From IMG/VR virus record IMGVR_UViG_3300045988_129927: 64,000 bases of DNA. One strand, 5' to 3'. This stretch comes from a virus. Position 1 is the stretch's first letter. Every line of letters starts with the position of its first letter. The notes under the pieces were generated by a model, which searched no databases, was not told the DNA's origin, and was given only the letters and a program-made list of their open reading frames with translations. A program made the position numbers and the translations under genes. Shown here piece after piece: positions 3,473-19,345 of the stretch.

Positions 3473-3494
3473 GTTGTTTCCTTTATATAAATAA

Positions 3495-4201: not shown

Positions 4202-4224
4202 CAAATTTAAAAAAGGATAAAACA

Positions 4225-4761: not shown

Positions 4762-4765
4762 CTAG

Positions 4766-4795: not shown

Positions 4796-4808
4796 TTAAG
4801 CTATATGT

Positions 4809-5522
4809 TTAAATTCTGGTATTTGCTACTTTAGAATATTCGGTGACACGAATCTTTTCAGCACCATTATCTGGTTTACCAGTAGAAACGAATACACCAT
4901 TTCCAGCACCATTTGGATGAGGGTGAGCATGAGATGATAGTACATCGTTAGGTTTCACCTCATCAGCACTGTGTCTAATTGAAGGAATAGCTTTTACAAC
5001 AGCATTACCAATTTCTACAATACCATTACCTCTAATAGATTTAACATCTTCATCAGAAAGAGTAACTGTATGTTCGGAAGAATGCTCAATGTTAGGAGCA
5101 CTAACTAAAATAGGCGCATTCTCTACATCGTCTTCTGTAACAGGTTCTTCGACTACAGTAGCTTTACTACGATAAGTGTCTAGTTCATTTCGTAGTTCTT
5201 CATTCTCTTTTTTCAATACTTCAACCAATTGACGAAGTTCTACCAATTCTTTATTAGTAGATTCACTTAGCTGTTTATAAGCTTGACTAGACTTAACCAA
5301 CAAATAGTCTTTAGTAGCATGAGATTCTGCATACTTTAACATAGTAGTTTCAATAAGAGAATAGATGTTCAAACCAGTAATGAAGTTCTCACGCAGTTGA
5401 GCCAACATATGTTGTGTCGCTGCACTTACATGTACTTCGTATGTGCTATCATCACAATCATGGATAGCTGTATTAGCGATAGCTGTATCTACAGTTTGGT
5501 TACTAGTATTTTGATTACTCAT
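4809..5522 (-). CDS. Hypothetical coiled-coil protein, co-transcribed with the Rad50-like gene
   Basis: Start moved to the ATG at 5522 (MSNQNTSNQ...), preceded by AAAAGGAAATCAAA and 13 nt after the stop of the upstream gene. A coiled-coil stretch LVELRQLVEVLKKENEELRNELDTYR is present. Confidence 0.65.
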   Translation of the reverse strand: MSNQNTSNQTVDTAIANTAIHDCDDSTYEVHVSAATQHMLAQLRENFITGLNIYSLIETTMLKYAESHATKDYLLVKSSQAYKQLSESTNKELVELRQLVEVLKKENEELRNELDTYRSKATVVEEPVTEDDVENAPILVSAPNIEHSSEHTVTLSDEDVKSIRGNGIVEIGNAVVKAIPSIRHSADEVKPNDVLSSHAHPHPNGAGNGVFVSTGKPDNGAEKIRVTEYSKVANTRI

Positions 5523-5535: not shown

Positions 5536-8064
5536 TTAACGAATAATTTCAACACCTCTGTTGAGGTTGTTAGGTGGTAAAACGATATTGTCTTCTGATA
5601 ACACACAGAAAGACACGTCATTTAAAACGGAATACTCCATAAAATTGTGAGACACAATAAATATTTGGTCTTCAATAAATTCTTCAGATAATTTCTCAAT
5701 TAGCTTTAAAGCATTCTCTCTGTGTTTAGCATCAAATGTTCTACCAAACTCATCTAAGAATATAGGATAACCTGATAAACCTAATGCTTTCATGGCAATC
5801 ATTTTAAATGCTAAATCAATAATCTCTAAAATACCATCACTACCTAAAGAAATATCTGCTTTTGGTTTTTCACTCAAACCCACAGTCATTGGGAAACGAT
5901 AAGATAACTCATCATTACTTTCACCATCTGTCATTTTAGCAGGATGAATAATAAGAGGATAAGACCAAATAGATTGGATAAATCCATTCATTCTGGCTAA
6001 GAATATCTTAATATAACCCAATAGACCCTCTGCAATTAAACCATCTTGAGGATTCAATGTATCAACAATAGCTGACCATGATTCAATCTCTTGTTTAATA
6101 TCTTCGATTTGTTTATTCACCATCTCGATATTCTTTTCACGAGTAATGATTTCAATTTGCTTTTTGGTCAATATAGCTACTTGATTTCTTTCTTCTGCAA
6201 TTAAACCAGACACCAAAGTATAAATATCGTATTCAGCTAACTTCATTTGGATATCATCAATATCATCCAATGTCGTTTGAAGAGAATCTTTAGCTTCTTC
6301 AAATTCATTATAGTAACGAAGAATATCTTCAATAGATTCCAAATGGATAATAATACTTTGTTTCTTTCTTCTCACTTCTTCTAACTGAGTTGACATCTTA
6401 TTTAATTGCTCGGTTAAAAGACGATGTTCTTTTTCATCTACTTGATTTGCATTGTCAATAATTTGCTGATAAGAGAGAATCTCTCGATTCAGTTTATCGA
6501 TATCGGATAGCAAAACCACATAGTCTTTATAATTATTATAAAGTTCAGTTGCTTCGTATACTTTACCTAGATAAAGTTTATTACGAATAACATCAATACA
6601 CCATTGGTTTAACACATTAGATTGATTTCGACAATATTGGCTAAAGTCTTTTAAGATAGTATACTTCGTATTCTTATCGATGTATTGTTCTTCTAAATCC
6701 TTAATAAGTAGAGTAATCTTATCAAGGTCTCCTTGAACTTCTTCTCGTTTTTTCAAATACAAATCATACTTCTCTTTATCAAACCCAGGATGAAATTCAT
6801 GTGAACAATTAGGACAAAGGATTTTAATCTCTTTCTCTTTTTGTTCTAAATGTTTAATTCTCTCATCAATTCGATTATACAAAACAGTAAGATTAGATTG
6901 TTCTTTCTTAGTTGAATCTATTTTATCAACTAATTGTCCAATAGAATCACGAGTAATATCTTCATCACCAAATAAACTTAAACGATGGAGTAATTCTAAA
7001 ACATCTGGGTTACCTTGTACCAATACTTCTTTTTGTAAGTGTAAATCAGTAATGGGATATTCACATGGAATTGAATTAGCTTGTTTTTCTAATTCGTTTT
7101 TCTTCTTTGTTAATTCTTCAATCTTAATACGAGTAGATTCTAATTCAGAATGAGAAGTAATCTTTACCTGATTAATCTTATTTTCCATTTGACTGTATTC
7201 TTTAATCAAATGGCTATACAGTAGTTCAGTCGCTTCTAATTCTTTTTCTAAAGAAAGTTTACGCTGAATGATTTCTTCTTTATATTCTGGCGTTAATTCC
7301 TTATTAGAGATATCAGTAATAGACTTTACTAATCTGTCATTCAATGGTTCTACTTTATTGACTAAAGAAGTTAGATTATTCTCTAAGTCAATATTATAGT
7401 TAGGATTAGCAAAAGCGTCTTTGTAACCAATAATCTTATTGAGTTCTTCAATTTTAAGATTGTGTTCGTTAATAGAAGCATTAATATTTGCTAATTCATT
7501 TTCTTCCACATTAGTAGAAGTCAATTGCATTTGGTGTTGCGTCATTTTCTTTAAAGCACCAGTAGCATCACGTAGTTTATCTTTTGCTTTATTGAATGTA
7601 TTAATCGCAAATGTGTAATCAGAATCACACAGCATAGTAAACCATTCTTTTCTCTTTACAGGGGACATCTGTGTAAACTTCTCTTTACCTGTTAAGAGTA
7701 AATGGATTTTATCAGTATAATTAAAATAATCTTTAATCAGTTGTTTCTGCATAGTTGCAGTACCACCGATATTCAATTCTTCATTTAATCCTTCGTCTAC
7801 GAAAGAATGTTTGTTAATGCTAAAATCAGAAGTCAAACAATAAATACGGTTATTGTGTTCTACCCTAATCTTCTTATATCCGTCTTTACTAAAGTCACTC
7901 TTATCAGCCAACATAGGGCTTAGGTAATGTAATAGACTAGACTTACCACTACCATTACTACCAATCACTGCCATGATGCTGGTTTCTGGTGTAATGGTAA
8001 TCTTTTTAATACCACTTAATTCTAAACGAATAGCACCTTTTAATTCTAATGATAATATTTTCAC
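5536..8064 (-). CDS. Rad50/SbcC-like SMC-family ATPase (T4 gp46-like)
   Basis: N-terminal Walker A is VIGSNGSGKSSLL. About 600 aa of heptad-rich coiled coil carry a central CxxC hook (ILCPNCSHEF, nt 6805..6816). The C-terminus has a signature-like SLGSDG, Walker B PIFLDEFG and an H-loop VSHN. The start codon is GTG with AAAGGA 8 nt upstream. Confidence 0.8.
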   Translation of the reverse strand: MKILSLELKGAIRLELSGIKKITITPETSIMAVIGSNGSGKSSLLHYLSPMLADKSDFSKDGYKKIRVEHNNRIYCLTSDFSINKHSFVDEGLNEELNIGGTATMQKQLIKDYFNYTDKIHLLLTGKEKFTQMSPVKRKEWFTMLCDSDYTFAINTFNKAKDKLRDATGALKKMTQHQMQLTSTNVEENELANINASINEHNLKIEELNKIIGYKDAFANPNYNIDLENNLTSLVNKVEPLNDRLVKSITDISNKELTPEYKEEIIQRKLSLEKELEATELLYSHLIKEYSQMENKINQVKITSHSELESTRIKIEELTKKKNELEKQANSIPCEYPITDLHLQKEVLVQGNPDVLELLHRLSLFGDEDITRDSIGQLVDKIDSTKKEQSNLTVLYNRIDERIKHLEQKEKEIKILCPNCSHEFHPGFDKEKYDLYLKKREEVQGDLDKITLLIKDLEEQYIDKNTKYTILKDFSQYCRNQSNVLNQWCIDVIRNKLYLGKVYEATELYNNYKDYVVLLSDIDKLNREILSYQQIIDNANQVDEKEHRLLTEQLNKMSTQLEEVRRKKQSIIIHLESIEDILRYYNEFEEAKDSLQTTLDDIDDIQMKLAEYDIYTLVSGLIAEERNQVAILTKKQIEIITREKNIEMVNKQIEDIKQEIESWSAIVDTLNPQDGLIAEGLLGYIKIFLARMNGFIQSIWSYPLIIHPAKMTDGESNDELSYRFPMTVGLSEKPKADISLGSDGILEIIDLAFKMIAMKALGLSGYPIFLDEFGRTFDAKHRENALKLIEKLSEEFIEDQIFIVSHNFMEYSVLNDVSFCVLSEDNIVLPPNNLNRGVEIIR

Positions 8065-8139
8065 GGTTATTATCCTTTTAATAAGACATAATTGTTCAAA
8101 AATATGAAAGGTTACAATATATTAATAAAGGAAAGTATA

Positions 8140-9087
8140 ATGGATAATCTAAATAACCTTGTACCATACTCAAGGGGTATCGCAGCCATTAACTTAGAGA
8201 TAAATACAGACATATTGACTGTATGGCCTAAGAGTATCCTACCTATGGTAGATGGTGAACTACATGATGTTATAGAAGAATATACGACAGAATATACCGA
8301 TAGCTATGGTAACAAGATATCGACAGGTGTACGCACCAGTAACACCATTGTGGCTAAGTGGTTATGTCGTGACCCAAACATGATGGTACCACCTAATATT
8401 AGACGTGGTGCAGAAGTACAAATATATCGTGAAGCCAATACAGATTACTTCTATTGGGAAACGGTTTCTAATTCTAAAAACTATCAGAAGCTAGAAACCA
8501 GAATCATGGGTTACTCTAATACTCAAAATGAGAATGAGAAACCTACACCAGAGAATACATGGACTCAAGGTATTTCTACACACGAGAAGAAAGTCAATTT
8601 CGTACACACTACTAAATCAGATGGTGAGAAATGGGCTTATGATGTTAACGTAGATGTTAAACAAGGTTTAGTTAACATCATGGATGACATTGGGAATTTA
8701 ATTAAGATAGATTCTGGAAATGGTATCATTCGTTTACAAACAGCGCAAGGTGCTTATATTGAGATTAATAAACGCGATATTACCATTAGTTGTGATAATC
8801 TAACCTCTAATGTATCTCAAGTAACACAAGTCAATACAATGCAAATGCAGAATAATGCTACTGCTAATATTGCTACAGTGACACCAATTCAAACACATAC
8901 TGGTAACTTAACGGTAGCAGGTGGTATTAGCGCAGGGCCTGGGGGTGACGGCAGTGGCTTTGAAATGCGTGGTGACATTAAGCATATTGGTAATATGGTT
9001 ACGGAAGGTGACCACATTATTGATGGTAAATCCTATAATGGCCATAGACATAGTGAAACACAATCTATTACTTCTCCACCAATTTAA
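8140..9087 (+). CDS. Baseplate central spike/hub protein (P2 gpV / Mu gp45-like)
   Basis: Start at the ATG at 8140 after AAAGGAAAGTATA. An OB-fold-like segment (AKWL..PPNIRRGAEVQIY) is followed by beta-helix-like repeats (IKIDSGNGIIRLQTAQGAYIEINKRDITI). The C-terminal apex GDHIIDGKSYNGHRHSETQSITSPPI has the HxH motif typical of gpV-type spikes. Confidence 0.55.
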   Translation: MDNLNNLVPYSRGIAAINLEINTDILTVWPKSILPMVDGELHDVIEEYTTEYTDSYGNKISTGVRTSNTIVAKWLCRDPNMMVPPNIRRGAEVQIYREANTDYFYWETVSNSKNYQKLETRIMGYSNTQNENEKPTPENTWTQGISTHEKKVNFVHTTKSDGEKWAYDVNVDVKQGLVNIMDDIGNLIKIDSGNGIIRLQTAQGAYIEINKRDITISCDNLTSNVSQVTQVNTMQMQNNATANIATVTPIQTHTGNLTVAGGISAGPGGDGSGFEMRGDIKHIGNMVTEGDHIIDGKSYNGHRHSETQSITSPPI

Positions 9088-9095
9088 TAAATACT

Positions 9096-9147: not shown

Positions 9148-9552
9148 TTAAGCTGTAATATTCTTCAGTTCTAAACGATTTTCAATCATCTTCTTGATAT
9201 CTATAACCATGTCAGCATGATTATAAATAAGCCAATTAGGTGTTCTACTGATTATCTTAGAAACAATCTCTTCTTCAGCTTCTTTTGTCAATACGACACG
9301 ATTTTCTGAATTCAATTCTGCTTTGACAATCTGTAGTTCTACACCATTCCAGAAGACTTGAGCTAAGCTCATCCCAGCACCACACGCATAGTCGTTATTA
9401 CACACTGTTAAGAGCTTATTGACTTTATGATAAATTCTTATATCCAAAGTCTTGACATTAAACAGTTTCGTATAAAGAGATGTAATAAACAAAGTTCTAA
9501 TTAAACGCTCTGGGAGTAGAAATTTTAGAATTTTATAGATTATACTCATCAT
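9148..9552 (-). CDS. Hypothetical protein
   Basis: 134-aa ORF, 14 nt downstream of the RNase H gene on the same strand. It ends at bidirectional hairpin 9096..9130. Confidence 0.55.
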   Translation of the reverse strand: MMSIIYKILKFLLPERLIRTLFITSLYTKLFNVKTLDIRIYHKVNKLLTVCNNDYACGAGMSLAQVFWNGVELQIVKAELNSENRVVLTKEAEEEIVSKIISRTPNWLIYNHADMVIDIKKMIENRLELKNITA

Positions 9553-9566
9553 GGTAGGCTATCCTG

Positions 9567-11195
9567 TTAATCAAGTAGAATTTGAGATACCCCTACGCCT
9601 TCCCAAATTCCATAGTTTTTAATTGTAAGTTTTTCCTCACTTAACTTTTCATGTAAAGTTACTAGAAAAGCAAAACGATACAAAGCACACGAAGTATGCC
9701 ATACCAGAAGTTTTACAGATGGATATTCTTGTTCAAAATATTTCATCTGATTTCTTCTTGGCATGTCGATACCACAGGTTAAAATAATATTCTTAACTTG
9801 CTTTTCTTTCACAAATTCATCACCACCAAATTCAATAGGAACTTTAATGGATTTCATTGTGTTAGTGTGCTCTTTAAGTAACGTCTTACCTATTACCGTT
9901 TTAATATTATTTCCCTGTAAATCTTCTACGACTTCCATTTCTTTAGTAGAATAAAACAATTCAGTTAAATCTACTGCTTTAACTAAAGGACTATTATCTT
10001 TATACAAATCTAATACATTCTGCAAAGCAGAAATATTATCAATGTTCTTCATCCCTAAGTATACTGGGTCGTTCACATATGTCAGTGTACTACCGTCTAC
10101 TGTTTCTAGGTTAGGAACACCTTGTGGACGAGAGATAAAGATATTACCGTATTTTGCTAACTTACGGTAAGTCTTAGTATTAGCAATATTGTCTAACATC
10201 AGACAATACATTAAGTTATTATAACCATAATGTTGATTTAACCATTTGTTTTGTTCCTCCTCTACCATTTCGATGACAGGGTTTCTATCCTTCATGTAGA
10301 CAATGCCAATTTGTGCGTCAGGGATTTGTTTACCGATATAGATATCTTCAACCTGATATCCTGGGTTGCCAACATAGAAAAGATTTTTATCAGTTCTACC
10401 ACCGAAACTAAAATAAAGTCGTTTATTAACCAATAGAGGGTGTATCGGTTCTGGTTTTTTGTCTATTTTTAATTCCTCTATTGTGACCTCACGATATACT
10501 TCATCTAATGTATCTGGAAAGTAAAGTTTGTTATTGGATAATGAAGCACCAATACTGGCACAGTTATCTGCAAACATATTGCTGATGTTTGAAATGGTAC
10601 GACTATCTTTGATGTTATCCCCATGACCTTTAATCCACTTAATAGAATAAGGAATCTTATTAGCACGGAGGATATTTCTTTCTTTGTAGATTTCTTCCCA
10701 TATTTCTTTATTATTAATGGGTTTACCAGAACCAGTAATGAAATCAGTAGACTTCCATTTATCTAACCAACCCATACCTTTAATAATGTATTCAGAGTCA
10801 GTAAAAATAATACAAACATCAGGATGTTCTTGATTAATAATTTTTAGTGCTTGTAAGAATGCGAGTAACTCACCCACATTATTACTACCAATAGTACCTG
10901 TACCCTTACACCATTCTACCATGTTTGTAATCTTAACATCGTAAAATGATTCATCGTCTAGTACAGATTTAACAAACTCATCTAAGTTTCCAATACTAGG
11001 GTATTCTTTTACTTTCTGCATTTTAATATCAGTAAAGCCCTTACTAGTAGGTCTAATACCCTTGATTGGAAATACCTTTTCAGCTTCCTCATTAGAGAAA
11101 GTATAATAATAAAGACCCGACCCTACTGGGCCTGGGTTTCTTTTAAAGTTACCGCCATCGCAGTAAATAATGAGTCCTTTACCAGTATAAGACAT
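9567..11195 (-). CDS. rnhA: RNase HI domain fused to a ~320-aa C-terminal domain of unknown function
   Basis: The N-terminal ~215 aa carry RNase HI motifs in order: IIYCDGGNFKRNPGPVGSG, SNNVGELLAFLQAL, IFTDSEYII, WIKGHGDN...NMFADNCAS. The remaining ~320 aa have no recognisable motif. RBS is TAGGAAC. Confidence 0.8.
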   Translation of the reverse strand: MSYTGKGLIIYCDGGNFKRNPGPVGSGLYYYTFSNEEAEKVFPIKGIRPTSKGFTDIKMQKVKEYPSIGNLDEFVKSVLDDESFYDVKITNMVEWCKGTGTIGSNNVGELLAFLQALKIINQEHPDVCIIFTDSEYIIKGMGWLDKWKSTDFITGSGKPINNKEIWEEIYKERNILRANKIPYSIKWIKGHGDNIKDSRTISNISNMFADNCASIGASLSNNKLYFPDTLDEVYREVTIEELKIDKKPEPIHPLLVNKRLYFSFGGRTDKNLFYVGNPGYQVEDIYIGKQIPDAQIGIVYMKDRNPVIEMVEEEQNKWLNQHYGYNNLMYCLMLDNIANTKTYRKLAKYGNIFISRPQGVPNLETVDGSTLTYVNDPVYLGMKNIDNISALQNVLDLYKDNSPLVKAVDLTELFYSTKEMEVVEDLQGNNIKTVIGKTLLKEHTNTMKSIKVPIEFGGDEFVKEKQVKNIILTCGIDMPRRNQMKYFEQEYPSVKLLVWHTSCALYRFAFLVTLHEKLSEEKLTIKNYGIWEGVGVSQILLD

Positions 11196-11222
11196 AATGT
11201 TTAGTTCCTATAGTTAAAGTGA

Positions 11223-11239
11223 ATTGAGAGTATTGAGAG
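11223..11239 (-). promoter_or_regulatory. Tandem ATTGAGAG x2 (9-nt period) upstream of the RNase H gene
   Basis: Copies at 11223..11230 and 11232..11239 lie 28-44 nt upstream of the ATG at 11195. On the minus strand they read CTCTCAAT a CTCTCAAT. Confidence 0.25.
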
Positions 11240-11276
11240 ATTACTTTTTTCATAGAAACCAAACATCTGTTTTTAT

Positions 11277-11588
11277 TTACATTGTGCCAGCTGGTGGCGG
11301 TGGCATATATTTTCGGTCAATGTGCTTAACTACAATGTCATGTAATTTCCTATTTTCTGATTCTAATTGTCTATTTTCTTTTTTCAATTTTTCGTACTTA
11401 ACATTCACCTCGTTGAATGCATCGTAGTAAACAATCAGTCTTTTAGTGACCATGAAATTATAAAATAAAGAAGCACATACTACAATTACTAATAGTATAC
11501 GAAATTTATGATGTTGATAAGCTTTACCTGGTCTTACATCTTTACCGATGATAAGCTCCCAGATAAAGCCAAAAATTATTTTCCACAT
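11277..11588 (-). CDS. Small membrane-anchored coiled-coil protein (i-spanin-like or FtsB-like architecture)
   Basis: Start moved to the ATG at 11588 (MWKIIFGF...) after AGGAGAATAAACATA. It has hydrophobic segments (IIFGFIWELII and ILLVIVVCASLFYNFMV), then the heptad stretch KYEKLKKENRQLESENRKLHD and a C-terminal PPPP. Confidence 0.55.
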   Translation of the reverse strand: MWKIIFGFIWELIIGKDVRPGKAYQHHKFRILLVIVVCASLFYNFMVTKRLIVYYDAFNEVNVKYEKLKKENRQLESENRKLHDIVVKHIDRKYMPPPPAGTM

Positions 11589-11643
11589 TATGTTTATTCT
11601 CCTATAGTTATTCATTGTATATTAGTATATTTAAGGACAAAAA

Positions 11644-12990
11644 ATGAGTAAATCTATTAAAGCATTTGCACAACACGATTTCTTCGTGACTAACACCAGA
11701 ATGGAAGAACATCGTTTTGGTGAACTATCTACAGAATCTCGTACTTACGAGAAAGATATTGCATTATATACCCACAATACAGATAAGTCAATCACTTTAG
11801 CACTATTTCGTTCTACTGACAACAATAGACGTGTCGAGATTGCATCAAATGATTTGAATCTGACTTTAGATATTGTTAAACATATCTACGATTATGTATT
11901 GCGTTCAGCTCGTGAAATCTACGTAGATGAATTGAAACGTAATCTATTAGATACTTTCCGTACACGTGCTCAGATGTTCCAATTAGGCAATGTCGTTACA
12001 GACGGTAACTACTATTGTGTTCAATGGGTATCCTGGAAAGACAATAACAATAATGAATTCCACGTATGGTTTAGTGATAAATCATTTAAATCAGAATACG
12101 ATGATTTTGAAATTGAGATTGTCCCTCCAGTAGATGCAATGGATGTATTTTTTACTACACGTACTCAAGTAGAAGCTGAATTGGCTAAAACCCCAGTTAA
12201 TCTATTGACTAAGAAAGCTAATGCTAAAAAAGGTTCTTCACCTGTTACCGTGTTTCGATTGGATATCTTCAAATGGCACAATCCAGTTAACCGTAGACCA
12301 GAATTAGATACCAATTGGTATGTATTAATCTGGGGTGATGCAGGTGACAATATTGACTCTGTACGTGAGAAGATTCAAGAAACTATTTTAGCTAATTCTT
12401 CACACAGTCGAGATGAATGGAAAGAAGTATTCCCAGAAATCTTTAAACGCAATGAATTCATTATTGTACCACAATGGGATGTATTCAGTAACGAGAATAA
12501 AGTAAAAGAGAAAGCCTCTTTATATTCTCCAGCCATGAATTATAAAGAAGCCTTTACTAAGTATGGTAAACCTTTCATGAATGAAATGCCAGATGCACAC
12601 ATTCAAGATAACTTACAAGTTACTTCATTGTACTATCGTTCTATTACTTCTAGTGTTTGTGGTTCTCCAGAAAACAGAGACAATAAATTTAAAATCAGAG
12701 ACATGTTCCCTGACTTTATTGACGTACCTTCTACCTCTACTGACTTTAACTATCAATCTACCCGTACACAAAACTGGTCTTTGAAGTTACAAGACATGAT
12801 GGCTGTTGCTGAAGAAATGACACCTACTTCTACACTACCACGTGAACGTTTAACTTTACCTGGTGGTGAAATCATTAATGGTGATAAGATTTATACTCGC
12901 GTTACCCGTAATGGTAAGCTATTCTTAGTCATGAACTTTGAGGGATTCCATTACTTAGTAGCTGCTAAGTATAACTTTAATAAAAAATAA
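11644..12990 (+). CDS. Hypothetical protein (possibly structural)
   Basis: 448-aa ORF with RBS AAGGACAAAAA. The next gene starts 11 nt after its stop. Confidence 0.7.
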   Translation: MSKSIKAFAQHDFFVTNTRMEEHRFGELSTESRTYEKDIALYTHNTDKSITLALFRSTDNNRRVEIASNDLNLTLDIVKHIYDYVLRSAREIYVDELKRNLLDTFRTRAQMFQLGNVVTDGNYYCVQWVSWKDNNNNEFHVWFSDKSFKSEYDDFEIEIVPPVDAMDVFFTTRTQVEAELAKTPVNLLTKKANAKKGSSPVTVFRLDIFKWHNPVNRRPELDTNWYVLIWGDAGDNIDSVREKIQETILANSSHSRDEWKEVFPEIFKRNEFIIVPQWDVFSNENKVKEKASLYSPAMNYKEAFTKYGKPFMNEMPDAHIQDNLQVTSLYYRSITSSVCGSPENRDNKFKIRDMFPDFIDVPSTSTDFNYQSTRTQNWSLKLQDMMAVAEEMTPTSTLPRERLTLPGGEIINGDKIYTRVTRNGKLFLVMNFEGFHYLVAAKYNFNKK

Positions 12991-13001
12991 GGAATAAATG
13001 A

Positions 13002-13664
13002 ATGTCTTCTTTAAATAACCCAACAGTAGGGTCAAAAGGATTATGGGAACTCAAAGCCCCTTTTAATTCTTTACTACCTGTTAATACTGCTTTAGAGTGT
13101 ACCGCAATATCTAATTATGGTCAACTCATTGCAATAGGTATTGACCCTTATGAAACGTATTATAAGAAGCATGAGATACCTGAAGCAACTTATAAAGAGC
13201 ACATGGAAACAGAAGGCAGGATAGTATTCCTAAGAACTGATTCTGGACAACGATATTCATTCCCATTACATTACTTAGTATCTTATCCTATTGGCACAGG
13301 TGTGAATTATGTGAGTATGGGTATTGGCATTCGTTTAGGTGCTATGCCATTAAATACTAATTTAGATTTGTTAATTGAACAAATTAAAGAATTATGTAAT
13401 TTAAATGTAGGTATTGAGATACATGCTGAGGCCATGGCTTTGTCTGAAATACACATTATTTCAAATCAAGACCATGAGAGAATCAAATCAGTAAGAGAGA
13501 CACGTAAGAAGGAACAAACTCCTGCGTTGGCTAAGATTACTGAATTGGCTAAGAGAGATGCGGATAAAGGAGCTAAACTGAAAATAGCTGAAGAGAAAGT
13601 CATCGAATTAGTGAATAAAGTCGCTACCTTAGAAGCAGAAATTAAACAACTAAAAGCAAGATAA
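13002..13664 (+). CDS. Hypothetical protein with a C-terminal coiled coil
   Basis: 220-aa ORF with RBS AAGGAATAAATGA. The C-terminus reads KIAEEKVIELVNKVATLEAEIKQLKAR. Hairpin 13670..13704 plus a T-run follow. Confidence 0.65.
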   Translation: MSSLNNPTVGSKGLWELKAPFNSLLPVNTALECTAISNYGQLIAIGIDPYETYYKKHEIPEATYKEHMETEGRIVFLRTDSGQRYSFPLHYLVSYPIGTGVNYVSMGIGIRLGAMPLNTNLDLLIEQIKELCNLNVGIEIHAEAMALSEIHIISNQDHERIKSVRETRKKEQTPALAKITELAKRDADKGAKLKIAEEKVIELVNKVATLEAEIKQLKAR

Positions 13665-13669
13665 CATAC

Positions 13670-13704
13670 TACTACTAGGATACCTATACGGTATCCTAGT
13701 AGTA
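13670..13704. terminator. Bidirectional hairpin between convergent genes
   Basis: TACTACTAGGATACC tatac GGTATCCTAGTAGTA: a 15-bp perfect stem, followed by TTGTTTTT on the plus strand. Confidence 0.75.
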
Positions 13705-13711
13705 ATTGTTT

Positions 13712-14572
13712 TTAAGCTAAACCACTTATTTCCCAAGAAACTTCATTTAAAGCACGTACTGTCATTTCTTGATTAAATATAGAAGCACTGAATGCTTCAA
13801 TGAATTCTGCCACACAAGCTACAGCATTACCTACTTTAGCAACCAGTTGTTTAGAGAATCCATCTTGTTTTGCTAAATCAGATAACTCTTTCACATAATT
13901 CATTGTAGTTTCTACAGAAACCATTAATTTACGACGGTCGATTAAGTTAAAGTTATTATTAGCTTTACGAGTAATGTTAATAGATTCAATTAACTCACCA
14001 TTGTTTTTAAATACATCACCATAAGGACGCATAGCATTAAATTCATTACCTTTACGAATCTTGCTAAGAGTATCTAAATCTTTTTTCAATTCTTTCAGAG
14101 CTTTTACATAGAGTGCATCTGAGAAAATAGTAGCATCTTTAATACCATCTTGTGTGGAAATAATACGACCAATGTCAGAACGCAATTGTTCAACTAAACC
14201 CATAGTATTTTTAAATGTCTCAGACATTTTCAAACCATGGGACGTGTAAGTAACATAGGTGGTATTCATACCTGCTGGTACGGATACTTGACGGTCGATT
14301 AAATAAGCGTAGTTATTAGTAAATCCTTTACTGGTCAATTTACGAACCGCTTCTTCATCTACTGAAAGCTGCTTTTGTTCTGTTTCAGTTAGTTTGTTTA
14401 CACCTAATCTTAAAGCGTTAAAACCTTTACTAAAAATACCAGTAATCGCTTGAATCAAACCTTCGTTACTTAACTGGATATCTTTCAATTCAGATACGGA
14501 GAAATTGAGTTGCTCAATCGATACTTCCAATGGAACATTCCATTGATTTTTTAATGCATCAAATTTACTCAT
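13712..14572 (-). CDS. Hypothetical protein
   Basis: 286-aa ORF, a single-gene minus-strand unit between hairpin 13670..13704 and the 120-bp divergent control region 14573..14692. Confidence 0.65.
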   Translation of the reverse strand: MSKFDALKNQWNVPLEVSIEQLNFSVSELKDIQLSNEGLIQAITGIFSKGFNALRLGVNKLTETEQKQLSVDEEAVRKLTSKGFTNNYAYLIDRQVSVPAGMNTTYVTYTSHGLKMSETFKNTMGLVEQLRSDIGRIISTQDGIKDATIFSDALYVKALKELKKDLDTLSKIRKGNEFNAMRPYGDVFKNNGELIESINITRKANNNFNLIDRRKLMVSVETTMNYVKELSDLAKQDGFSKQLVAKVGNAVACVAEFIEAFSASIFNQEMTVRALNEVSWEISGLA

Positions 14573-14600
14573 GTTAAATGACTTTCTTCTTAATTATGGT

Positions 14601-14618
14601 TAAAAAATAGCTAAATAA
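14601..14618 (+). promoter_or_regulatory. 18-mer TAAAAAATAGCTAAATAA upstream of the recombinase gene
   Basis: It matches 52814..52831 at 17 of 18 positions. Both lie on the plus strand in divergent control regions 75-110 nt before a replication/recombination gene. Confidence 0.3.
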
Positions 14619-14692
14619 ATTGTCTCTCCCAATATATTTGAATACATTATATTTAACCCCCCGACAAACAGATTTTCAATAAAGGACATAAC

Positions 14693-16213
14693 ATGGCTAT
14701 TGAAGGTTTCTTTCAAATGGAAGCGAAGACATCACCATATCTTCGCGCAAATATTAATATCGGTTGCTTAATGGATATTCTAACAGGTGCACCTGTATTA
14801 GGAGAACATGGACGTTATATTACAAACGGTGGACATAATGGTTCCGTTGTAATTGTAGGTCCTGGTAACTCATATAAATCCGCTATTGCTGACTATATTA
14901 GTCAGATTTGTGCATTCCGTTTACATCGTTATTCTACTGGTCAAAAATACGATACAGAGAATAATGTGTTTATGCCAGGCTTAGAAGCACGTCTACGTCG
15001 TATCGTTCGTCCTGACCATGAACCAGACTGGTTCCAATCAGGTCGTTGGATTGTGACTGAATCAGCCATCTATAAAGGTGACGAATGGTTTAAGATGGCA
15101 AAAGACTGGATGTACGCTAAGAAAAAAGCAGGTTCTAAAATGATGGTGGAAATCCCTATTCTAGATAGGGAAGGTAAGAAGATTAAAATTCTATTACCTA
15201 CCCATATTACATTGGACTCTGCTTCTAAGTTTGAAGGTTCTCAAATTAATGAATTGCGTGATAAAACAGACTTAGGTGATGCCAAACAAAATATGCTTCA
15301 CATGACTTCTGGTAAAATTAAACGCAACATGATTGACGAACTACCAGATATCTTAGTAGGTACAAATACTTATTTAACCACTACTGTCCACTATGGTGAG
15401 AAATATCAGCTTGATCCATATGCGCCAGTACACCAACCACTTCAACATTTAGACCGTGGTATGCAATTGAAAGGTGTTCCTAATAACATTAACTATCTTG
15501 CCATGACCATGTGGTTGATTCGTGGTGTAGCAAAATTGAACAAATACGATAAAAACCAAATGGATTATCCATTAAAAGGTGTTGGCGTAGACAATAACCC
15601 AGATGACTTAAACGTAGTAAGCATGAAAATGTTACGTTGTAAAACAGGCCCATCAGGTGTGACTGTAAACGTAGTGGTATCGCAGAAGTACGGTGTATTG
15701 GAAGAATTGACTAACTTCCATTTCTTACGTACTCATGGTTTCTTTGGCTTAAAAGGCGATATGTCTTTGAATGGTAGCTTTAAAGATTCTTACTGTGTAT
15801 TACGCCCTGAAGTAAAATTAGCTCGTACTACTGTTCGTAGTTTGATGGATGAAGACCTTCGTTTGGCTCGAGCTATTCAGATTTGTGCAGACATGTTGCA
15901 GATGAAAGAATACTGGCGTGCAGCATTAGGTAATATTGATGTTCGACTTCTTGACCTTACTCCAGAAACACTCTACGAGAAAGTCAAAGAACAAGGTTAC
16001 GACTGGGACATCTTATTGAATACACGTCCATGGTATTCTGCAGACGATGACGACCATTGTCAACTAGAACTCTCTACATTAGATATTATGCGTATTGCAT
16101 TAGGTACTTATCACCCATTCTGGTTAGAAGCTGATAAGAAAACCATCAAGAAAAAATATCGTAAAGAGTTTGTTAAATCAATCACTGAAATGATTGAAGA
16201 ATCTTCTAAATAA
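14693..16213 (+). CDS. UvsX/RecA-like recombinase
   Basis: It is collinear with T4 UvsX as I recall it. VVIVGPGNSYKSAIADYISQ matches LLILAGPSKSFKSNFGLTMVS (Walker A). KYDTENNVFMPGLEARL matches FYDSEFGITPAYLRSMG. ITLDSASKFEGS matches VFIDSLGNLASK (Walker B). RBS is AAAGGACATAAC. Confidence 0.6.
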   Translation: MAIEGFFQMEAKTSPYLRANINIGCLMDILTGAPVLGEHGRYITNGGHNGSVVIVGPGNSYKSAIADYISQICAFRLHRYSTGQKYDTENNVFMPGLEARLRRIVRPDHEPDWFQSGRWIVTESAIYKGDEWFKMAKDWMYAKKKAGSKMMVEIPILDREGKKIKILLPTHITLDSASKFEGSQINELRDKTDLGDAKQNMLHMTSGKIKRNMIDELPDILVGTNTYLTTTVHYGEKYQLDPYAPVHQPLQHLDRGMQLKGVPNNINYLAMTMWLIRGVAKLNKYDKNQMDYPLKGVGVDNNPDDLNVVSMKMLRCKTGPSGVTVNVVVSQKYGVLEELTNFHFLRTHGFFGLKGDMSLNGSFKDSYCVLRPEVKLARTTVRSLMDEDLRLARAIQICADMLQMKEYWRAALGNIDVRLLDLTPETLYEKVKEQGYDWDILLNTRPWYSADDDDHCQLELSTLDIMRIALGTYHPFWLEADKKTIKKKYRKEFVKSITEMIEESSK

Positions 16214-16224
16214 AGGAAATCAAA

Positions 16225-17052
16225 ATGACTGAATTGAATAACACTAATGAAGAACAAGTAATCGAATTGACTAAAGAAACAGCTCAAGAGATTAATGACG
16301 AATATGCTAAAATGGCTGGTGAAGAACCAGTAAAAGTAGAAGATACTCTAAATAAAACAGGTTTGAAAGATGAGACATTTGAAGCTCTGATTACTGACCC
16401 TAATTTTATTTTGAGTGATTTGAAAAAGCTGATTGATAAACATGGTCTCTTTACATTGACTGATTTGTTTAATTTCATGGGATTTAATATCAATACCTTG
16501 AAAGCAGTAATTTATAACAAATCTATTACTGAACAAATCTTTCTTTTGTCTCGTGAACTTCGTTTGTTCTTGTTCCGCATTGGTGAACTATCTGGTAAGA
16601 AAGAAGATGGTTATAACACACGTGAGATTCGTTCTTTATTGGGTGAAACCATGACTTCTAAGGAATGGTTAGAGTTACTAGATACTCAAATCCTCCCTTA
16701 CATTGGCTACTATGTAGAACATGGCAAGATTGACCGTGAATGGTTTACTCGCGAAGAGAATAAGATTGAATCTCAAGAAGAAGCTACCGCCGCCGTTGTT
16801 CGAGAGGCATTTGAAACTAATCGTAAATTAGCAAATGAGATGATGCAGATGAACGAAGAAATTAAAGTTCTATTTGATGAAGATGGTAATGTACGCGAAG
16901 GCGAAGATACAGACAATCTTCAACTGGAGCACGGTGAAGAAACTGTTCTTGAAACTAATGACGAGGAAGTCAAAGAAGCTCAAGAACACCTCGACCACGC
17001 TGGTGAGACAGTAGTGGAAGAAAAGCCAGTACAAGAACAAACCCAACAGTAA
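16225..17052 (+). CDS. Hypothetical acidic protein
   Basis: 275-aa ORF with RBS AAAGGAAATCAAA. It is Glu/Asp-rich at both ends (C-terminus EHGEETVLETNDEEVKEAQEHLDHAGETVVEEKPVQEQ). Hairpin 17065..17090 follows. Confidence 0.65.
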   Translation: MTELNNTNEEQVIELTKETAQEINDEYAKMAGEEPVKVEDTLNKTGLKDETFEALITDPNFILSDLKKLIDKHGLFTLTDLFNFMGFNINTLKAVIYNKSITEQIFLLSRELRLFLFRIGELSGKKEDGYNTREIRSLLGETMTSKEWLELLDTQILPYIGYYVEHGKIDREWFTREENKIESQEEATAAVVREAFETNRKLANEMMQMNEEIKVLFDEDGNVREGEDTDNLQLEHGEETVLETNDEEVKEAQEHLDHAGETVVEEKPVQEQTQQ

Positions 17053-17064
17053 ATAATTAGACAT

Positions 17065-17090
17065 CCTACGTAATCTTATGATTACGTAGG
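17065..17090 (+). terminator. Hairpin between tandem plus-strand genes
   Basis: CCTACGTAATC ttat GATTACGTAGG: an 11-bp perfect stem. Confidence 0.6.
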
Positions 17091-17100
17091 TGTTTATATT
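17090..17100 (+). promoter_or_regulatory. GTGTTTATATT box immediately after a hairpin, 29 nt before an ATG
   Basis: An identical 11-mer occurs at 23648..23658 (19 nt before the ATG at 23677). Looser minus-strand copies are GGTGTTTTATTATTGTT (47731..47748) and GTGTTATTTATT (32651..32663), each just downstream of a hairpin. Confidence 0.3.
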
Positions 17101-17128
17101 GTTATATGTTTTTATAAGGTAGTTCAAA

Positions 17129-17809
17129 ATGAATAATGCCAGAAAAGCAGCGACTGATTTAGCTGTAGAATTTATTGGTAAGCTATTACCAAAAACCAAT
17201 AACGCTGAACTAACTCGGCAGCGTTTAGATAGGTTAAGCGACAAAGAATTTGAAGAATTAATGCATTCATTTAAGAATGAAAAAGATTACTTACAGTTAT
17301 TCTCACCAATTGGTGATGATGATGCCCGTCTGAATATGGACAATTTACATAAAGTAGGACACGAGTACGGTATTGAGTTTTACCATAAGATTTGGATGCC
17401 TGAAGAAGACGGTAGTTGGGAATTATCAAATAAAGAAGCGATGATTGTTTATCTCCCTATCCGTGTACAACAGCAATTGATTTCTAAAAAGATTTCTATT
17501 CCTAAAGACAATAACCATGTCGACTTCTATACAGGACAAGCTACTGGTCCTAATTCAAAAGGTGCACGTGTATCTTATCCTGAAGTCAATATGTTGTTAG
17601 CCATGGGTCTAAATAAAACTGTGGAAGAAATGATGCACTTTAGGGGTGGTTCTGAAAAAGGTATGCGTCTATTAGAGCAATCTATTTCTCAAATGGGTAG
17701 GGCTTCAGCAGATGCCTTAAAACCATATAGTGGTGAAGTAGGTGCAACCTTAATGCTTCATTCTTATTTAACAGCAATGATGTTAAAATCTACATTATTG
17801 CAAAAATAA
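17129..17809 (+). CDS. RNA polymerase beta-subunit C-terminal fragment-like protein
   Basis: Three collinear blocks resemble the last ~190 residues of bacterial RpoB (E. coli sequence recalled from memory). LDRLSDKEFEELMHSFKNE matches LSTFSDEEVMRLAENLRKG. MIVYLPIRVQQQLISKKI matches TVGYMYMLKLNHLVDDKM. TGQATGPNSKGARVSYPEVNMLLAMGLNKTVEEMMHFRGGSEKG matches [46 protein letters not shown]. Confidence 0.55.
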   Translation: MNNARKAATDLAVEFIGKLLPKTNNAELTRQRLDRLSDKEFEELMHSFKNEKDYLQLFSPIGDDDARLNMDNLHKVGHEYGIEFYHKIWMPEEDGSWELSNKEAMIVYLPIRVQQQLISKKISIPKDNNHVDFYTGQATGPNSKGARVSYPEVNMLLAMGLNKTVEEMMHFRGGSEKGMRLLEQSISQMGRASADALKPYSGEVGATLMLHSYLTAMMLKSTLLQK

Positions 17810-17821
17810 AAGGAAACCAAA

Positions 17822-18388
17822 ATGGAAGATGTAGACATTGACCTGACACAAGAACAAAGTGATGTAGAAGTAGCATATGCTTATACTACTAATTATATCG
17901 CTAAATTAGACCAAGAGATTAAAGAAGATAATTCTTTTTCAAAAAGAATAGAAAAAGAACTTTATCGCAGTAGTGCACATGTTCTTTCTAGATTCGACGA
18001 GCGTAAACAATTACCTTTATTCTTTACCACAAGTACAGACAATAAACTGTCTTCTTACATTAATAGTTTATTTAAAATAGAGAAAATTCAAGACATTTAT
18101 CGTTATCTTACATCAGGTACAGAAGAAGCTAATTTAATAGCTAATATCTTACAAGATATTTATTGTCACTTTAAGTTAAATAACCATGGACTATACGATG
18201 ATGTTCGTCTTTATATCAATACATTGGTTAGAGACCTTAATAGTCAAAATCTAGCAGAAGACATTACTAAGAATTATCTTATTAGACCTGATATTTGGAT
18301 ATTTATTGTTTTACAGACATTTACTAAATTAAACTATAAAGACTGTGTGTTGTACTATATTTTAAGTGAATCTACTTTGAAAGGATAA
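17822..18388 (+). CDS. Hypothetical protein
   Basis: 188-aa ORF with RBS AAAGGAAACCAAA, in the same unit as the beta-like gene. Confidence 0.6.
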   Translation: MEDVDIDLTQEQSDVEVAYAYTTNYIAKLDQEIKEDNSFSKRIEKELYRSSAHVLSRFDERKQLPLFFTTSTDNKLSSYINSLFKIEKIQDIYRYLTSGTEEANLIANILQDIYCHFKLNNHGLYDDVRLYINTLVRDLNSQNLAEDITKNYLIRPDIWIFIVLQTFTKLNYKDCVLYYILSESTLKG

Positions 18389-18392
18389 CTAA

Positions 18393-19199
18393 ATGATTAA
18401 TAAAGAAGTCCAAAAGAAACATGGGTTTCTGGTTAGTCTAGATGAATTATTCGACACTCGATTAGCTGTACTAGAGATGATGGACTTTGAAAAAGCAGAT
18501 GAATTACAAGTCACAGGTTTCTTTACACGAGAAAGAGACGAGTTTCCAGGTATAGACTTATACGAGTTTCGTAAACGCTATGCTGAAAGAAACATTGCTG
18601 TATTGGCTAATTCTACCATGACTAATCTCATGATTAATCTTCGAGACATCATTGGTTCTTATATTGTAGAAAATACATACGAGAACAAAGAAGCAGAAGT
18701 GGACTTAGTATTAAACACTTATCCTTATCAATTAACCAAAGAAGAATTAAATGACATGGTAACCTGTATTAAACTTCATTTAGGTAATATTGTTCCAGTA
18801 AGGGTAATTCACCAACCTCTTAAGAAAATTAGTAGTGATTGGTTAGATGACAATGTGGTTTCATTCTATTGTTACGACTGGAATGAGTGGTTAACGCACC
18901 ATTATACAGAGTTTATTAAGAAACGACTAGAAACAGTGGTGATGTTGTGTCCACGTATTGCTCCATTGTCTAATCAAGAAGGTCTTAATCAGGTAAATGA
19001 AATTAATAAAGAAATCGAATCTGTTAAAATCATTTCAGAAAAAGACTTAGAGTCTGAAGACTTTAATGAAGACTCATTTGGTGCTATTGAATCTATTTGT
19101 AAACACGCTGGATTAAACTTATCTTTTGTAGATACCCGTTTATTCTGTCGTATGTTACCTAATGATGTACCTACACCAACAGAAAAGTTTAAGTATTAA
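18393..19199 (+). CDS. Hypothetical protein
   Basis: 268-aa ORF with RBS GAAAGGATAACTAA, starting 4 nt after the previous stop. Confidence 0.65.
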   Translation: MINKEVQKKHGFLVSLDELFDTRLAVLEMMDFEKADELQVTGFFTRERDEFPGIDLYEFRKRYAERNIAVLANSTMTNLMINLRDIIGSYIVENTYENKEAEVDLVLNTYPYQLTKEELNDMVTCIKLHLGNIVPVRVIHQPLKKISSDWLDDNVVSFYCYDWNEWLTHHYTEFIKKRLETVVMLCPRIAPLSNQEGLNQVNEINKEIESVKIISEKDLESEDFNEDSFGAIESICKHAGLNLSFVDTRLFCRMLPNDVPTPTEKFKY

Positions 19200-19313: not shown

Positions 19314-19345
19314 CTACTACTCTACCTAAAAAGGTAGAGTAGTAG
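19314..19345. terminator. Bidirectional hairpin at the left edge of the receptor-binding cassette
   Basis: CTACTACTCTACC taaaaa GGTAGAGTAGTAG: a 13-bp perfect stem whose core is identical to hairpin 29616..29652. Confidence 0.7.

What the first reader, a model, noticed from the sequence alone, without database searches (positions are those of the whole stretch)
17129..17809. Stand-alone 226-aa gene that encodes only the extreme C-terminus of an RNA polymerase beta subunit
Read by eye, the product aligns in three collinear blocks with roughly the last 190 residues of bacterial RpoB. These blocks include the near-universal [24 protein letters not shown]..GR region (here SYPEVNMLLAMGLNKTVEEMMHFRGGSEKGMR) and the terminal amphipathic helix (ATLMLHSYLTAMMLKSTL versus SFNVLLKEIRSLGINIEL). 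The gene has its own RBS and sits right after a hairpin, so it is a separate polypeptide and not a piece of a larger ORF. Split beta and beta-prime genes are the signature of the multisubunit RNAPs of phiKZ-like and AR9/PBS-like jumbo phages. A fragment this short would mean the beta chain is cut further towards the C-terminus, or into more pieces, than in the described enzymes. The flanking genes (16225..17052 and 17822..19199) are unassigned and could encode additional RNAP-associated subunits.
Basis: partly seen in the sequence, partly recalled or inferred. Interest (0 to 1): 0.7.

Follow-up and report, generated by a model that had tools for sequence, protein, structure and literature searches.

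The report
Jumbo-phage virion RNA polymerase beta C-terminal subunit
This 226-residue gene is the small C-terminal piece of the split beta subunit of the RNA polymerase that phiKZ-like giant phages carry in their capsids; the subunit is already described and is cut at the same place as in phiKZ, so the finding is correct but ordinary.

Summary
The ORF at 17129..17809 (+, 226 aa) is real, and so is its resemblance to the end of bacterial RpoB. A family profile aligns collinearly with E. coli RpoB 1161-1310 (hhalign E 1.2e-4; score 40.8 against 15.9 +/- 2.3 for shuffles). All 50 best Foldseek hits of its AlphaFold model are RNAP beta chains.

It is not a new kind of fragmentation. The protein is the ortholog of phiKZ gp149 (224 aa, 31% identity, E 6e-33) and belongs to phrog_3233 (E 8e-63, full length). 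[quoted passage not shown] Gene order is conserved around it (gp152-like upstream, gp147-like downstream).

The same phage also encodes an unsplit 1482-aa beta-N (gp178-like), a beta'-N (gp180-like) and a gp176-like beta'-C about 25 kb away. Beta-N ends and beta-C begins at about RpoB 1130-1137, exactly as in phiKZ (1451 + 224 aa).

The flanking genes show no link to RNAP.

One side observation may be worth following. In some uncultured relatives the beta-C module is fused to the C-terminus of the virion SNF2 helicase (gp203 ortholog), or to DUF5662 or GNAT domains.

The parts
17129..17809 (+). Gene for the beta-C subunit of the virion RNA polymerase (ortholog of phiKZ gp149, SPN3US gp218 and RSF1 ORF051); corresponds to E. 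coli RpoB about 1131-1342
17116..17119 (+). Shine-Dalgarno-like AAGG, 9 nt upstream of the ATG
   Evidence: read directly from the sequence
17065..17090 (+). Terminator-like hairpin (11 pairs, 4-nt loop, T-rich tail) between the upstream ORF and beta-C
14693..16213 (+). Conserved upstream neighbour: homolog of phiKZ gp152 (UvsX/RecA-like recombinase family); context only, not part of the RNAP
18393..19199 (+). Conserved downstream neighbour: homolog of phiKZ gp147 and RSF1 ORF049 (phrog_3328, function unknown); no evidence that it is an RNAP subunit
45961..47664 (-). A piece of the other phage polymerase in the same window: homolog of phiKZ gp123, a subunit of the non-virion RNAP
55324..57492 (+). 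Ortholog of phiKZ gp203 (virion-associated SNF2/DEAD-type helicase). In some uncultured relatives this helicase is fused to the N-terminus of the beta-C module, so it is a candidate partner of beta-C

Best explanation
The gene encodes beta-C, the small C-terminal polypeptide of the split beta-like subunit of the virion-packaged multisubunit RNA polymerase (vRNAP) of an uncultured, AT-rich (33.7% GC) phiKZ-like jumbo phage.

Shown: it is orthologous to phiKZ gp149, it is homologous to RpoB about 1131-1342, and it complements a 1482-aa beta-N encoded elsewhere in the same genome. Beta-N ends about 30 residues after its equivalent of the NPLGVPSRM motif.

Inferred from the cellular enzyme and from experiments on phiKZ and SPN3US: beta-C supplies the last part of the hybrid-binding domain (the stretch around E. 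coli H1237/K1242 and TQQPLGG...GEMEV) and the Rpb2-domain-7/clamp-anchor segment with its terminal helix, which clasps beta'. It assembles with beta-N and the three beta' pieces before packaging, is loaded into the capsid, and is injected with the DNA. There the complex transcribes early genes independently of host RNAP.
For: - Family assignment: phrog_3233 'RNA polymerase beta subunit', E 8e-63, covering 1-224 of 226 residues and 223 of 225 profile positions.
- Distribution in isolates: tblastn hits in 289 phage records, all at under 60% identity, listed for hosts such as Pseudomonas, Erwinia, Salmonella, Vibrio, Serratia, Aeromonas, Klebsiella and Ralstonia. Best hit is RSF1 ORF051 at 41.7%. 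The ~40 rows listed are jumbo-size genomes (210-322 kb).
- Orthology: phiKZ gp149 at 31% identity, E 6e-33, 224 vs 226 aa.
- Synteny with gp152 and gp147 homologs in phiKZ and RSF1.
- Published role: gp149, RSF1 ORF051 and SPN3US gp218 are the vRNAP beta C-region. SPN3US gp218 was found in virions by MS and lost with a beta-N amber mutation. gp149 co-immunoprecipitates with gp180, and gp149-sfCherry2 is packaged and injected (PMC5468394 Table 1; PMC5105663 Table 5; PMC10612078; bioRxiv 10.1101/2024.03.24.586471; PMC7598289 Fig 3; PMC7824862).
- RpoB homology: hhalign E 1.2e-4 to 4.9e-4, about 10.8 sd above the shuffle mean (40.8 vs 15.9, sd 2.3). HMMER places RpoB chains collinearly (profile 33-186 to RpoB 1161-1309), though at E 0.4-0.6. 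All top 50 Foldseek PDB hits are RNAP beta chains, the best being AR9 nvRNAP 7s00_C (E 2e-3, prob 0.97).
- Partner subunits: the IMG/VR contig with a 100% identical beta-C also carries beta-N (1482 aa; gp178 E 1e-174), beta'-N (gp180 E 6e-88) and gp176-like beta'-C.
- Junction: the beta-N profile aligns to RpoB 515-1107 and ends 30 residues later.
- Family size and conservation: 924 clusters at 50% identity, mostly 218-235 aa. All differences between the window copy and the four strain variants are synonymous.
Against: - No Pfam RNA_pol_Rpb2_6/7 hit for this protein or for any of 22 homologs. phiKZ gp178 and gp180 also get no Pfam hit, so this negative says little.
- HMMER profile hits to RpoB chains in the PDB are not significant on their own (E 0.4-0.6).
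- The AlphaFold model is only moderate (mean pLDDT 64.8; residues 109-152 below 50), and Foldseek TM-scores are low (0.15-0.29).
- No hhalign match to the corresponding part of the phiKZ nvRNAP beta (gp73).
- Virion packaging and activity are inferred from orthologs and were not tested for this phage.
Confidence: 0.93

Rival explanations
1. One reading: this phage has a vRNAP beta chain cut at a new, more C-terminal site or into more pieces than the described jumbo-phage enzymes.
For: The piece is short (226 aa) and no other vRNAP piece lies in the 64-kb window. In one other AT-rich metagenomic contig (L018) beta-N itself looks divided, with a partial ORF of 441 aa followed by a 1080-aa ORF.
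Against: phiKZ gp149 (224 aa) and SPN3US gp218 (222 aa) have the same length and the same boundaries (PMC5105663). The same phage has one continuous 1482-aa beta-N, against 1451 aa in phiKZ. The junction maps to RpoB about 1130-1137 from both sides. L018 is a different phage.
Confidence: 0.02
2. A virion structural or internal head protein whose resemblance to RpoB is spurious, with the 'RNA polymerase beta subunit' label merely propagated through annotation.
For: Many records call the homolog 'virion structural protein' or 'hypothetical protein'. There is no Pfam hit, and the individual HMMER and Foldseek statistics are weak.
Against: The profile score is about 10.8 sd above shuffles and lands end-to-end on the RpoB C-terminus. 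The 50 best of 350,542 PDB chains are all RNAP beta chains. Beta-N stops exactly where this protein begins on the RpoB scale. gp149 co-immunoprecipitates with gp180 (PMC10612078), and SPN3US gp218 leaves the virion together with beta-N (PMC5105663).
Confidence: 0.03
3. A subunit of the non-virion RNAP (the enzyme made after infection) rather than of the virion enzyme.
For: The window also carries an nvRNAP gene, the gp123 homolog.
Against: nvRNAP beta is made of only two pieces (gp123 and gp71-73), and its C-terminal region is part of the 700-residue chain 7ogp_C (PMC7824862). The best matches here are gp149-type proteins, and there is no match to gp73.
Confidence: 0.01

Closest known systems
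phiKZ gp149 (vRNAP beta C-terminal subunit; NP_803715)
   Same: Stand-alone protein of 224 vs 226 aa, alignable from about residue 14 to the last residues of both proteins. Same neighbours (gp152-like and gp147-like genes). Same partner architecture: a beta-N of about 1450-1480 aa encoded elsewhere.
   Different: Only 31% identical. The host genome is AT-rich (33.7% GC), known only from metagenomes, and has no near DNA match among 50,697 phage records.
Ralstonia phage RSF1 ORF051, RP12 ORF55 and SPN3US gp218 (vRNAP beta-C)
   Same: Same family (phrog_3233). RSF1 ORF051 is the closest match among isolates at 41.7%. SPN3US gp218 is 222 aa and was shown by MS to be in the head and to depend on beta-N (PMC5468394; PMC5105663).
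   Different: Sequence divergence only; no architectural difference was seen.
Bacterial RpoB C-terminus (E. coli residues about 1131-1342; end of Pfam RNA_pol_Rpb2_6 plus Rpb2_7)
   Same: Collinear from end to end, with the FSDEEV, TQQPLGG...GxR...EV...L.A.G and terminal-helix blocks in the same order.
   Different: It is a separate polypeptide, it falls below Pfam thresholds, and E. coli H1237 aligns with Gln116 (low confidence at residue level). The phage enzyme has no alpha or omega partners (PMC7598289).
AR9/PBS1-type vRNAP beta-C fused to an HD domain
   Same: It corresponds to the same C-terminal region of bacterial beta (PMC7598289, PMC7824862; not compared here). In the fused proteins found here the accessory domain always sits N-terminal to the beta-C module.
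   Different: The window protein has no extra domain. The AR9-type proteins were too divergent to appear in the searches run here.

Membership tests
Jumbo-phage vRNAP beta-C subunit (phiKZ gp149 / SPN3US gp218 / phrog_3233) | Significant full-length sequence similarity to characterised members | tested here: met
   phrog_3233 E 8e-63 over 1-224; phiKZ gp149 E 6e-33; RSF1 ORF051 41.7%
Jumbo-phage vRNAP beta-C subunit (phiKZ gp149 / SPN3US gp218 / phrog_3233) | Stand-alone polypeptide of about 220-230 aa | tested here: met
   226 aa; gp149 is 224 aa; most of the 150 best representatives are 218-235 aa
Jumbo-phage vRNAP beta-C subunit (phiKZ gp149 / SPN3US gp218 / phrog_3233) | Homology to the C-terminal conserved regions of cellular RNAP beta, continuing from where beta-N ends | tested here: met
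   hhalign to RpoB 1161-1310 at E 1.2e-4, about 10.8 sd above shuffles; all top 50 Foldseek hits are RNAP beta chains; beta-N aligns to RpoB 515-1107 and ends 30 residues later
Jumbo-phage vRNAP beta-C subunit (phiKZ gp149 / SPN3US gp218 / phrog_3233) | The same genome encodes the other vRNAP pieces (beta-N, beta'-N, beta'-M, beta'-C) | tested here: met
   None lies in the window. Contig IMGVR_UViG_3300008472_000003, which carries a 100% identical beta-C, also has beta-N (1482 aa), beta'-N (501 aa) and a gp176-like beta'-C (241 aa). The gp80-like beta'-M was searched for only in the window and in L069 and was not found there; the rest of the genome was not read.
Jumbo-phage vRNAP beta-C subunit (phiKZ gp149 / SPN3US gp218 / phrog_3233) | Conserved gene neighbourhood (gp152 ... 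gp149 ... gp147) | tested here: met
Jumbo-phage vRNAP beta-C subunit (phiKZ gp149 / SPN3US gp218 / phrog_3233) | Physically present in the virion and in the vRNAP complex | not testable with these tools
   Known for the orthologs only (PMC5105663, PMC10612078, bioRxiv 10.1101/2024.03.24.586471)
Cellular RNAP beta (Pfam RNA_pol_Rpb2_6 / RNA_pol_Rpb2_7) | Score above the Pfam gathering threshold | tested here: not met
   No hit for the protein or for any of 22 homologs, even at E up to 10. The undisputed vRNAP subunits gp178 and gp180 also fail.
Jumbo-phage nvRNAP beta | Similarity to gp123 or gp71-73 type chains; C-terminal region contained within a chain of about 700 aa | tested here: not met
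   No hhalign match to gp73 (E 0.64); gp73 corresponds to residues 406-700 of 7ogp_C

The most novel reading that the evidence does not exclude
The free N-terminus of beta-C may be the docking point for accessory enzymes of the virion polymerase. In particular, the virion SNF2-type helicase (phiKZ gp203; window ORF 55324..57492) may work as a physically attached factor of the vRNAP, in the manner of RapA or NPH-I.

The basis is a set of 'Rosetta-stone' fusions. Three divergent uncultured relatives, from three different samples, encode one continuous ORF made of a gp203-type helicase followed by beta-C. Other relatives carry DUF5662 (which has an HHD motif and may be HD-type) or tandem GNAT domains in the same position. 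The beta-C module is always at the extreme C-terminus.

No such fusion is present in 50,697 isolate phage records. Iyer et al. 2021 proposed a RapA-like role for the jumbo-phage Swi2/Snf2-type helicase from its co-occurrence with the RNAP genes only.
Probability: 0.35. Interest if true: 0.5.

Novelty: new member of a known kind. Interest (0 to 1): 0.15.

Why it matters
For this window it matters little. The gene is a divergent but typical copy of a described vRNAP subunit, and it serves as a marker that the window comes from a phiKZ-like jumbo phage.

Two by-products may be useful.

1. The beta-N/beta-C junction can now be placed at about RpoB 1130-1137 by two independent profile alignments. 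No solved vRNAP structure matched beta-C by sequence in the PDB copy, and a 2020 review noted that no vRNAP had been purified.
2. The helicase-beta-C fusions in uncultured relatives give a testable physical link between the virion helicase and the vRNAP.

Tried and rejected
- Pfam scans of the protein and of 22 homologs found no Rpb2 domain. This is uninformative, because gp178 and gp180 also fail.
- phmmer and hmmsearch against PDB sequences: nothing with the single sequence or with the 22-sequence profile. With the 133-sequence profile, RpoB chains appear only at E 0.4-0.6, and S100-A9 and a designed repeat protein score better on the N-terminal helices. I take these as spurious.
- Pairwise BLASTP to E. 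coli RpoB is not significant.
- hhalign of the family profile against phiKZ gp73, the nvRNAP paralogous region, gave no match.
- I expected the long proteins that carry the beta-C module to be unsplit beta subunits. They are not: their N-terminal parts are helicase, DUF5662, GNAT or unknown domains.
- Flanking ORFs as RNAP subunits: ORF 16225..17052 has only a weak terminase-small-subunit hit (E 0.0075). ORF 17822..18388 has no hit and no similarity to gp148 or RSF1 ORF050. ORF 18393..19199 is the gp147 family, of unknown function.
- Finding beta-N of this phage through RSF1 ORF040 homologs: the AT-rich candidates P0215 and P0216 belong to other phages. An exact-protein lookup of ORF 90..1007 failed, apparently because the window starts inside a 743-aa gene. 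Walking from the gp181-like SLT gene into IMG/VR contigs succeeded.

Full report
**Observation.** The window has an ATG-initiated ORF at 17129..17809 on the + strand, 226 aa, ending in TAA. An AAGG lies 9 nt upstream of the ATG (17116..17119). A terminator-like hairpin (11 pairs, T-rich tail) occupies 17065..17090 in the 76-nt gap after the previous ORF. Gene callers predicted exactly this protein on metagenomic contigs of up to 239 kb, and the identical protein is indexed in 94 blocks of the collection. Four strain variants differ from the window copy in this gene by 3-9 nucleotides each. All changes are synonymous, 18 of the 19 at third codon positions. It is therefore a real gene under purifying selection.

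In K-12 RpoB, GEMEVW starts at 1271, KSDD at 1294 and SFNVLL at 1322.

Simple methods do not see the similarity:
- Pfam gives nothing for the protein or for 22 homologs.
- phmmer against PDB sequences gives nothing.
- Pairwise BLASTP to RpoB is not significant.

Profile methods do see it:
- A 22-sequence profile aligns residues 34-188 with RpoB 1160-1309 (E 0.054).
- A 161-sequence profile (Neff 4.9) aligns 33-188 with 1161-1310 at E 1.2e-4 and score 40.8. Forty shuffled RpoB sequences scored 15.9 +/- 2.3 (max 22.0), and reversed RpoB scored 17.0.
- The tool's own hhalign on a 133-sequence alignment gives E 4.9e-4 over the same range.
- With greedy extension the alignment runs from residue 1 to 226 against RpoB 1131-1342, so both proteins end together.
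- HMMER with the 133-sequence profile places RpoB chains collinearly (33-186 to 1161-1309; for Xanthomonas RpoB, 6-186 to 1176-1351), but only at E 0.4-0.6.

An AlphaFold2 model is of moderate quality (mean pLDDT 64.8). The N-terminal 100 residues are confident and residues 109-152 are below 50, which is plausible (my inference) for a chain that is interwoven with other subunits. Even so, all 50 best Foldseek matches among 350,542 PDB chains are RNAP beta chains. The best is the AR9 non-virion RNAP chain 7s00_C (E 2e-3, probability 0.97), and phiKZ nvRNAP 8que_C also appears. I conclude that the homology to the RpoB C-terminus is real.

**What it is.**
- The protein matches phrog_3233, 'RNA polymerase beta subunit', over its full length (E 8e-63).
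- tblastn finds a homolog in 289 phage records, all at under 60% identity. The listed records are jumbo-size genomes from hosts such as Pseudomonas, Erwinia, Salmonella, Vibrio, Serratia, Aeromonas, Klebsiella and Ralstonia. The best is RSF1 ORF051 at 41.7%.
- In phiKZ the counterpart is gp149 (224 aa; 31% identity, E 6e-33).
- Gene order is conserved. The upstream 506-aa ORF is the gp152 homolog (E 1e-79), and the ORF at 18393..19199 is the gp147 / RSF1 ORF049 homolog.
- A tblastn map of the window onto phiKZ finds homologs of gp182, gp165, gp164, gp155, gp157, gp161, gp152, gp149, gp130, gp131, gp135, gp140, gp139, gp128, gp129, gp123, gp120 (major capsid protein), gp118 (DnaB) and gp203.

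The window therefore comes from a phiKZ-like jumbo phage. No isolate genome matches it at DNA level. Its GC content is 33.7%.

**What the literature says about this family.**
- phiKZ gp149, RSF1 ORF051 and RP12 ORF55 are listed as the C-region of the beta subunit of the virion-associated RNAP (PMC5468394, Table 1).
- SPN3US gp218 (222 aa) is labelled beta-C. It is detected in heads by mass spectrometry and disappears, together with the other vRNAP subunits, in an amber mutant of beta-N gp241 (1401 aa) (PMC5105663, Table 5 and discussion).
- gp149 co-immunoprecipitates with mCherry-gp180 (PMC10612078).
- gp149-sfCherry2 is packaged and injected with the DNA (bioRxiv 10.1101/2024.03.24.586471).
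[quoted passage not shown] 3). They note that the C-terminal extension of beta is a separate protein in vRNAPs (PMC7824862).

**Is the cut unusual?** No. The other vRNAP genes are not in the window, so I walked outwards from it.
- The window's left end lies next to a gp182-like gene and a 2811-aa gp181-like SLT gene.
- Using part of the SLT protein as a query, I recovered IMG/VR contigs of the same phage.
- Contig IMGVR_UViG_3300008472_000003 (97,447 bp) carries a beta-C that is 100% identical to the window's.
- About 25 kb away it carries a single 1482-aa ORF homologous to gp178 (33.7% over residues 467-1442, E 1e-174), a 501-aa gp180 homolog (E 6e-88) and a 241-aa gp176 homolog, the proposed beta'-C.
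- A profile of beta-N sequences aligns with RpoB 515-1107, including VGDK...LKA...GSNSVYNRI opposite PGDK...NKG...NPLGVPSRM. Beta-N ends 30 residues later, at about RpoB 1137.
- Beta-C begins at about RpoB 1131.

The two polypeptides meet with neither gap nor overlap. The arrangement (1482 + 226 aa) equals that of phiKZ (1451 + 224) and SPN3US (1401 + 222).

**Mechanism.** The steps shown here are orthology to gp149, homology and collinearity with RpoB 1131-1342, complementarity with beta-N, and purifying selection.

The following steps are inferred from established knowledge of cellular RNAPs and from experiments on the orthologs. The piece contributes the last strands of the hybrid-binding domain (the region of E. 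coli H1237/K1242 and the TQQPLGG...GQRFGEMEV stretch). It also contributes the switch-region/clamp-anchor segment (Rpb2 domain 7), whose terminal helix packs against beta'. It assembles with beta-N and the beta' pieces before packaging, travels in the capsid, and is injected to transcribe early genes without the host RNAP.

In the family alignments, positions such as Q116, Q137, S143, P151, E152, R172 and G173 are invariant or nearly so, and G174 is invariant in both. Their equivalence to individual RpoB residues is of low confidence.

**Flanking genes.**
- ORF 16225..17052 (275 aa, acidic) has only a weak PHROG hit (E 0.0075).
- ORF 17822..18388 has no hit and no similarity to its positional counterparts, gp148 and RSF1 ORF050.
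- ORF 18393..19199 belongs to the gp147 family (phrog_3328). Its SPN3US homolog gp219 is listed as essential and is not marked as a virion protein (PMC5105663 Table 4).

Nothing links any of these to the RNAP.

**Side observation.** An exhaustive profile search found 924 clusters (at 50% identity) of this family. Most of the best 150 are stand-alone proteins of 218-235 aa, but about 15 are longer proteins with the beta-C module at the extreme C-terminus.
- Their N-terminal parts are not beta-N.
- In P0060, P0092 and P0126 the N-terminal part is an SNF2/ResIII/Helicase_C helicase. P0060 has Hint and LAGLIDADG hits and P0092 a weak LAGLIDADG hit, which suggests an inserted intein.
- That helicase is orthologous to phiKZ gp203, a virion 'structural protein' helicase (E about 1e-77 to 1e-84), and to window ORF 55324..57492.
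- The three fusions are continuous ORFs on contigs from three different samples.
- Other fusions carry DUF5662, which has an HHD motif and may correspond to the HD domain reported for AR9-type phages, or two GNAT domains.
- No isolate phage record has the helicase-beta-C or the DUF5662-beta-C fusion as one locus.

This suggests that the N-terminus of beta-C is an attachment point for accessory enzymes. It also adds physical-linkage evidence to the earlier idea that the jumbo-phage Swi2/Snf2 helicase acts with the RNAP in a RapA-like way (PMC7824862). This concerns relatives, not the window gene, and it remains an inference.

**Verdict.** It is a new, divergent member (31-42% identical to isolate homologs) of a known and partly characterised subunit family. 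Interest is low.

Noticed in passing
Relatives P0060, P0092 and P0126 (loci L014:2279-6256, L015:73-3891, L009:1321-4101); window 55324..57492: In three divergent uncultured relatives the vRNAP beta-C module is fused to the C-terminus of an SNF2-type helicase. That helicase is orthologous to phiKZ gp203 (virion helicase) and to window ORF 55324..57492. P0060 has Hint and LAGLIDADG hits and P0092 a weak LAGLIDADG hit, suggesting an intein. The fusion is absent from 50,697 isolate phage records. It suggests that the virion helicase is a physical partner of the vRNAP.
   Followed up: partly
Relatives P0158, P0166, P0174, P0132, P0170 (DUF5662); P0145 (two GNAT domains); P0043, P0058, P0103, P0054, P0062, P0076 (unknown N-terminal domains): Other N-terminal accessory domains are fused to beta-C, which is always at the extreme C-terminus. 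DUF5662 carries an HHDEDK motif and may be the HD domain described for AR9-type Bacillus phages. The GNAT fusion and the unknown domains did not come up in the papers I read.
   Followed up: partly
window 45961..47664 (-): Homolog of phiKZ gp123, a subunit of the non-virion RNAP (PDB 7ogp_E, E 3e-46). The window therefore holds one piece of each of the two phage RNA polymerases.
   Followed up: yes
L069 (IMGVR_UViG_3300008472_000003, contig 10118-31317): 2602..7050, 7586..9091, 86..811, 9212..17647: The same phage encodes vRNAP beta-N (1482 aa), beta'-N (501 aa), a gp176-like beta'-C (241 aa) and a 2811-aa gp181-like SLT-domain protein just beyond the left end of the window, in the phiKZ gp176-gp182 order.
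   Followed up: yes
whole window; IMG/VR loci L019-L032: The phage is 33.7% GC and has no near DNA match among isolate phages. It recurs in many metagenomes: the identical beta-C is in 94 index blocks, and near-complete contigs are 229-241 kb. Several IMG/VR sample ids are of the 7000000xxx type, which I recall as Human Microbiome Project assemblies. I did not verify this, and the host is unknown.
   Followed up: partly
L018 (ENA ERZ27280939 k119_135551): 2..1327, 2234..5476, 9311..10465, 11355..12218: In a different AT-rich relative, beta-N appears divided: a partial ORF of 441 aa, a 0.9-kb gap, then a 1080-aa ORF. GIY-YIG and HNH homing-endonuclease genes lie nearby. This may be an intron or a mobile-element interruption like those drawn for vRNAP genes of 201phi2-1 (PMC5105663 Fig. 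7).
   Followed up: no
window 19314..19345 (+) and 17065..17090 (+): Two strong terminator-like hairpins bracket the three co-oriented genes 17129..19199 (beta-C, a 188-aa ORF, and the gp147-like ORF). This suggests a small transcription unit.
   Followed up: no
window 59320..61011 (-) and 63163..63933 (-): Weak paralogy (23% identity, E 1e-9) between two ORFs in a run of large minus-strand ORFs. Those scanned (57567..62834) have no PHROG match; the function is unknown.
   Followed up: no
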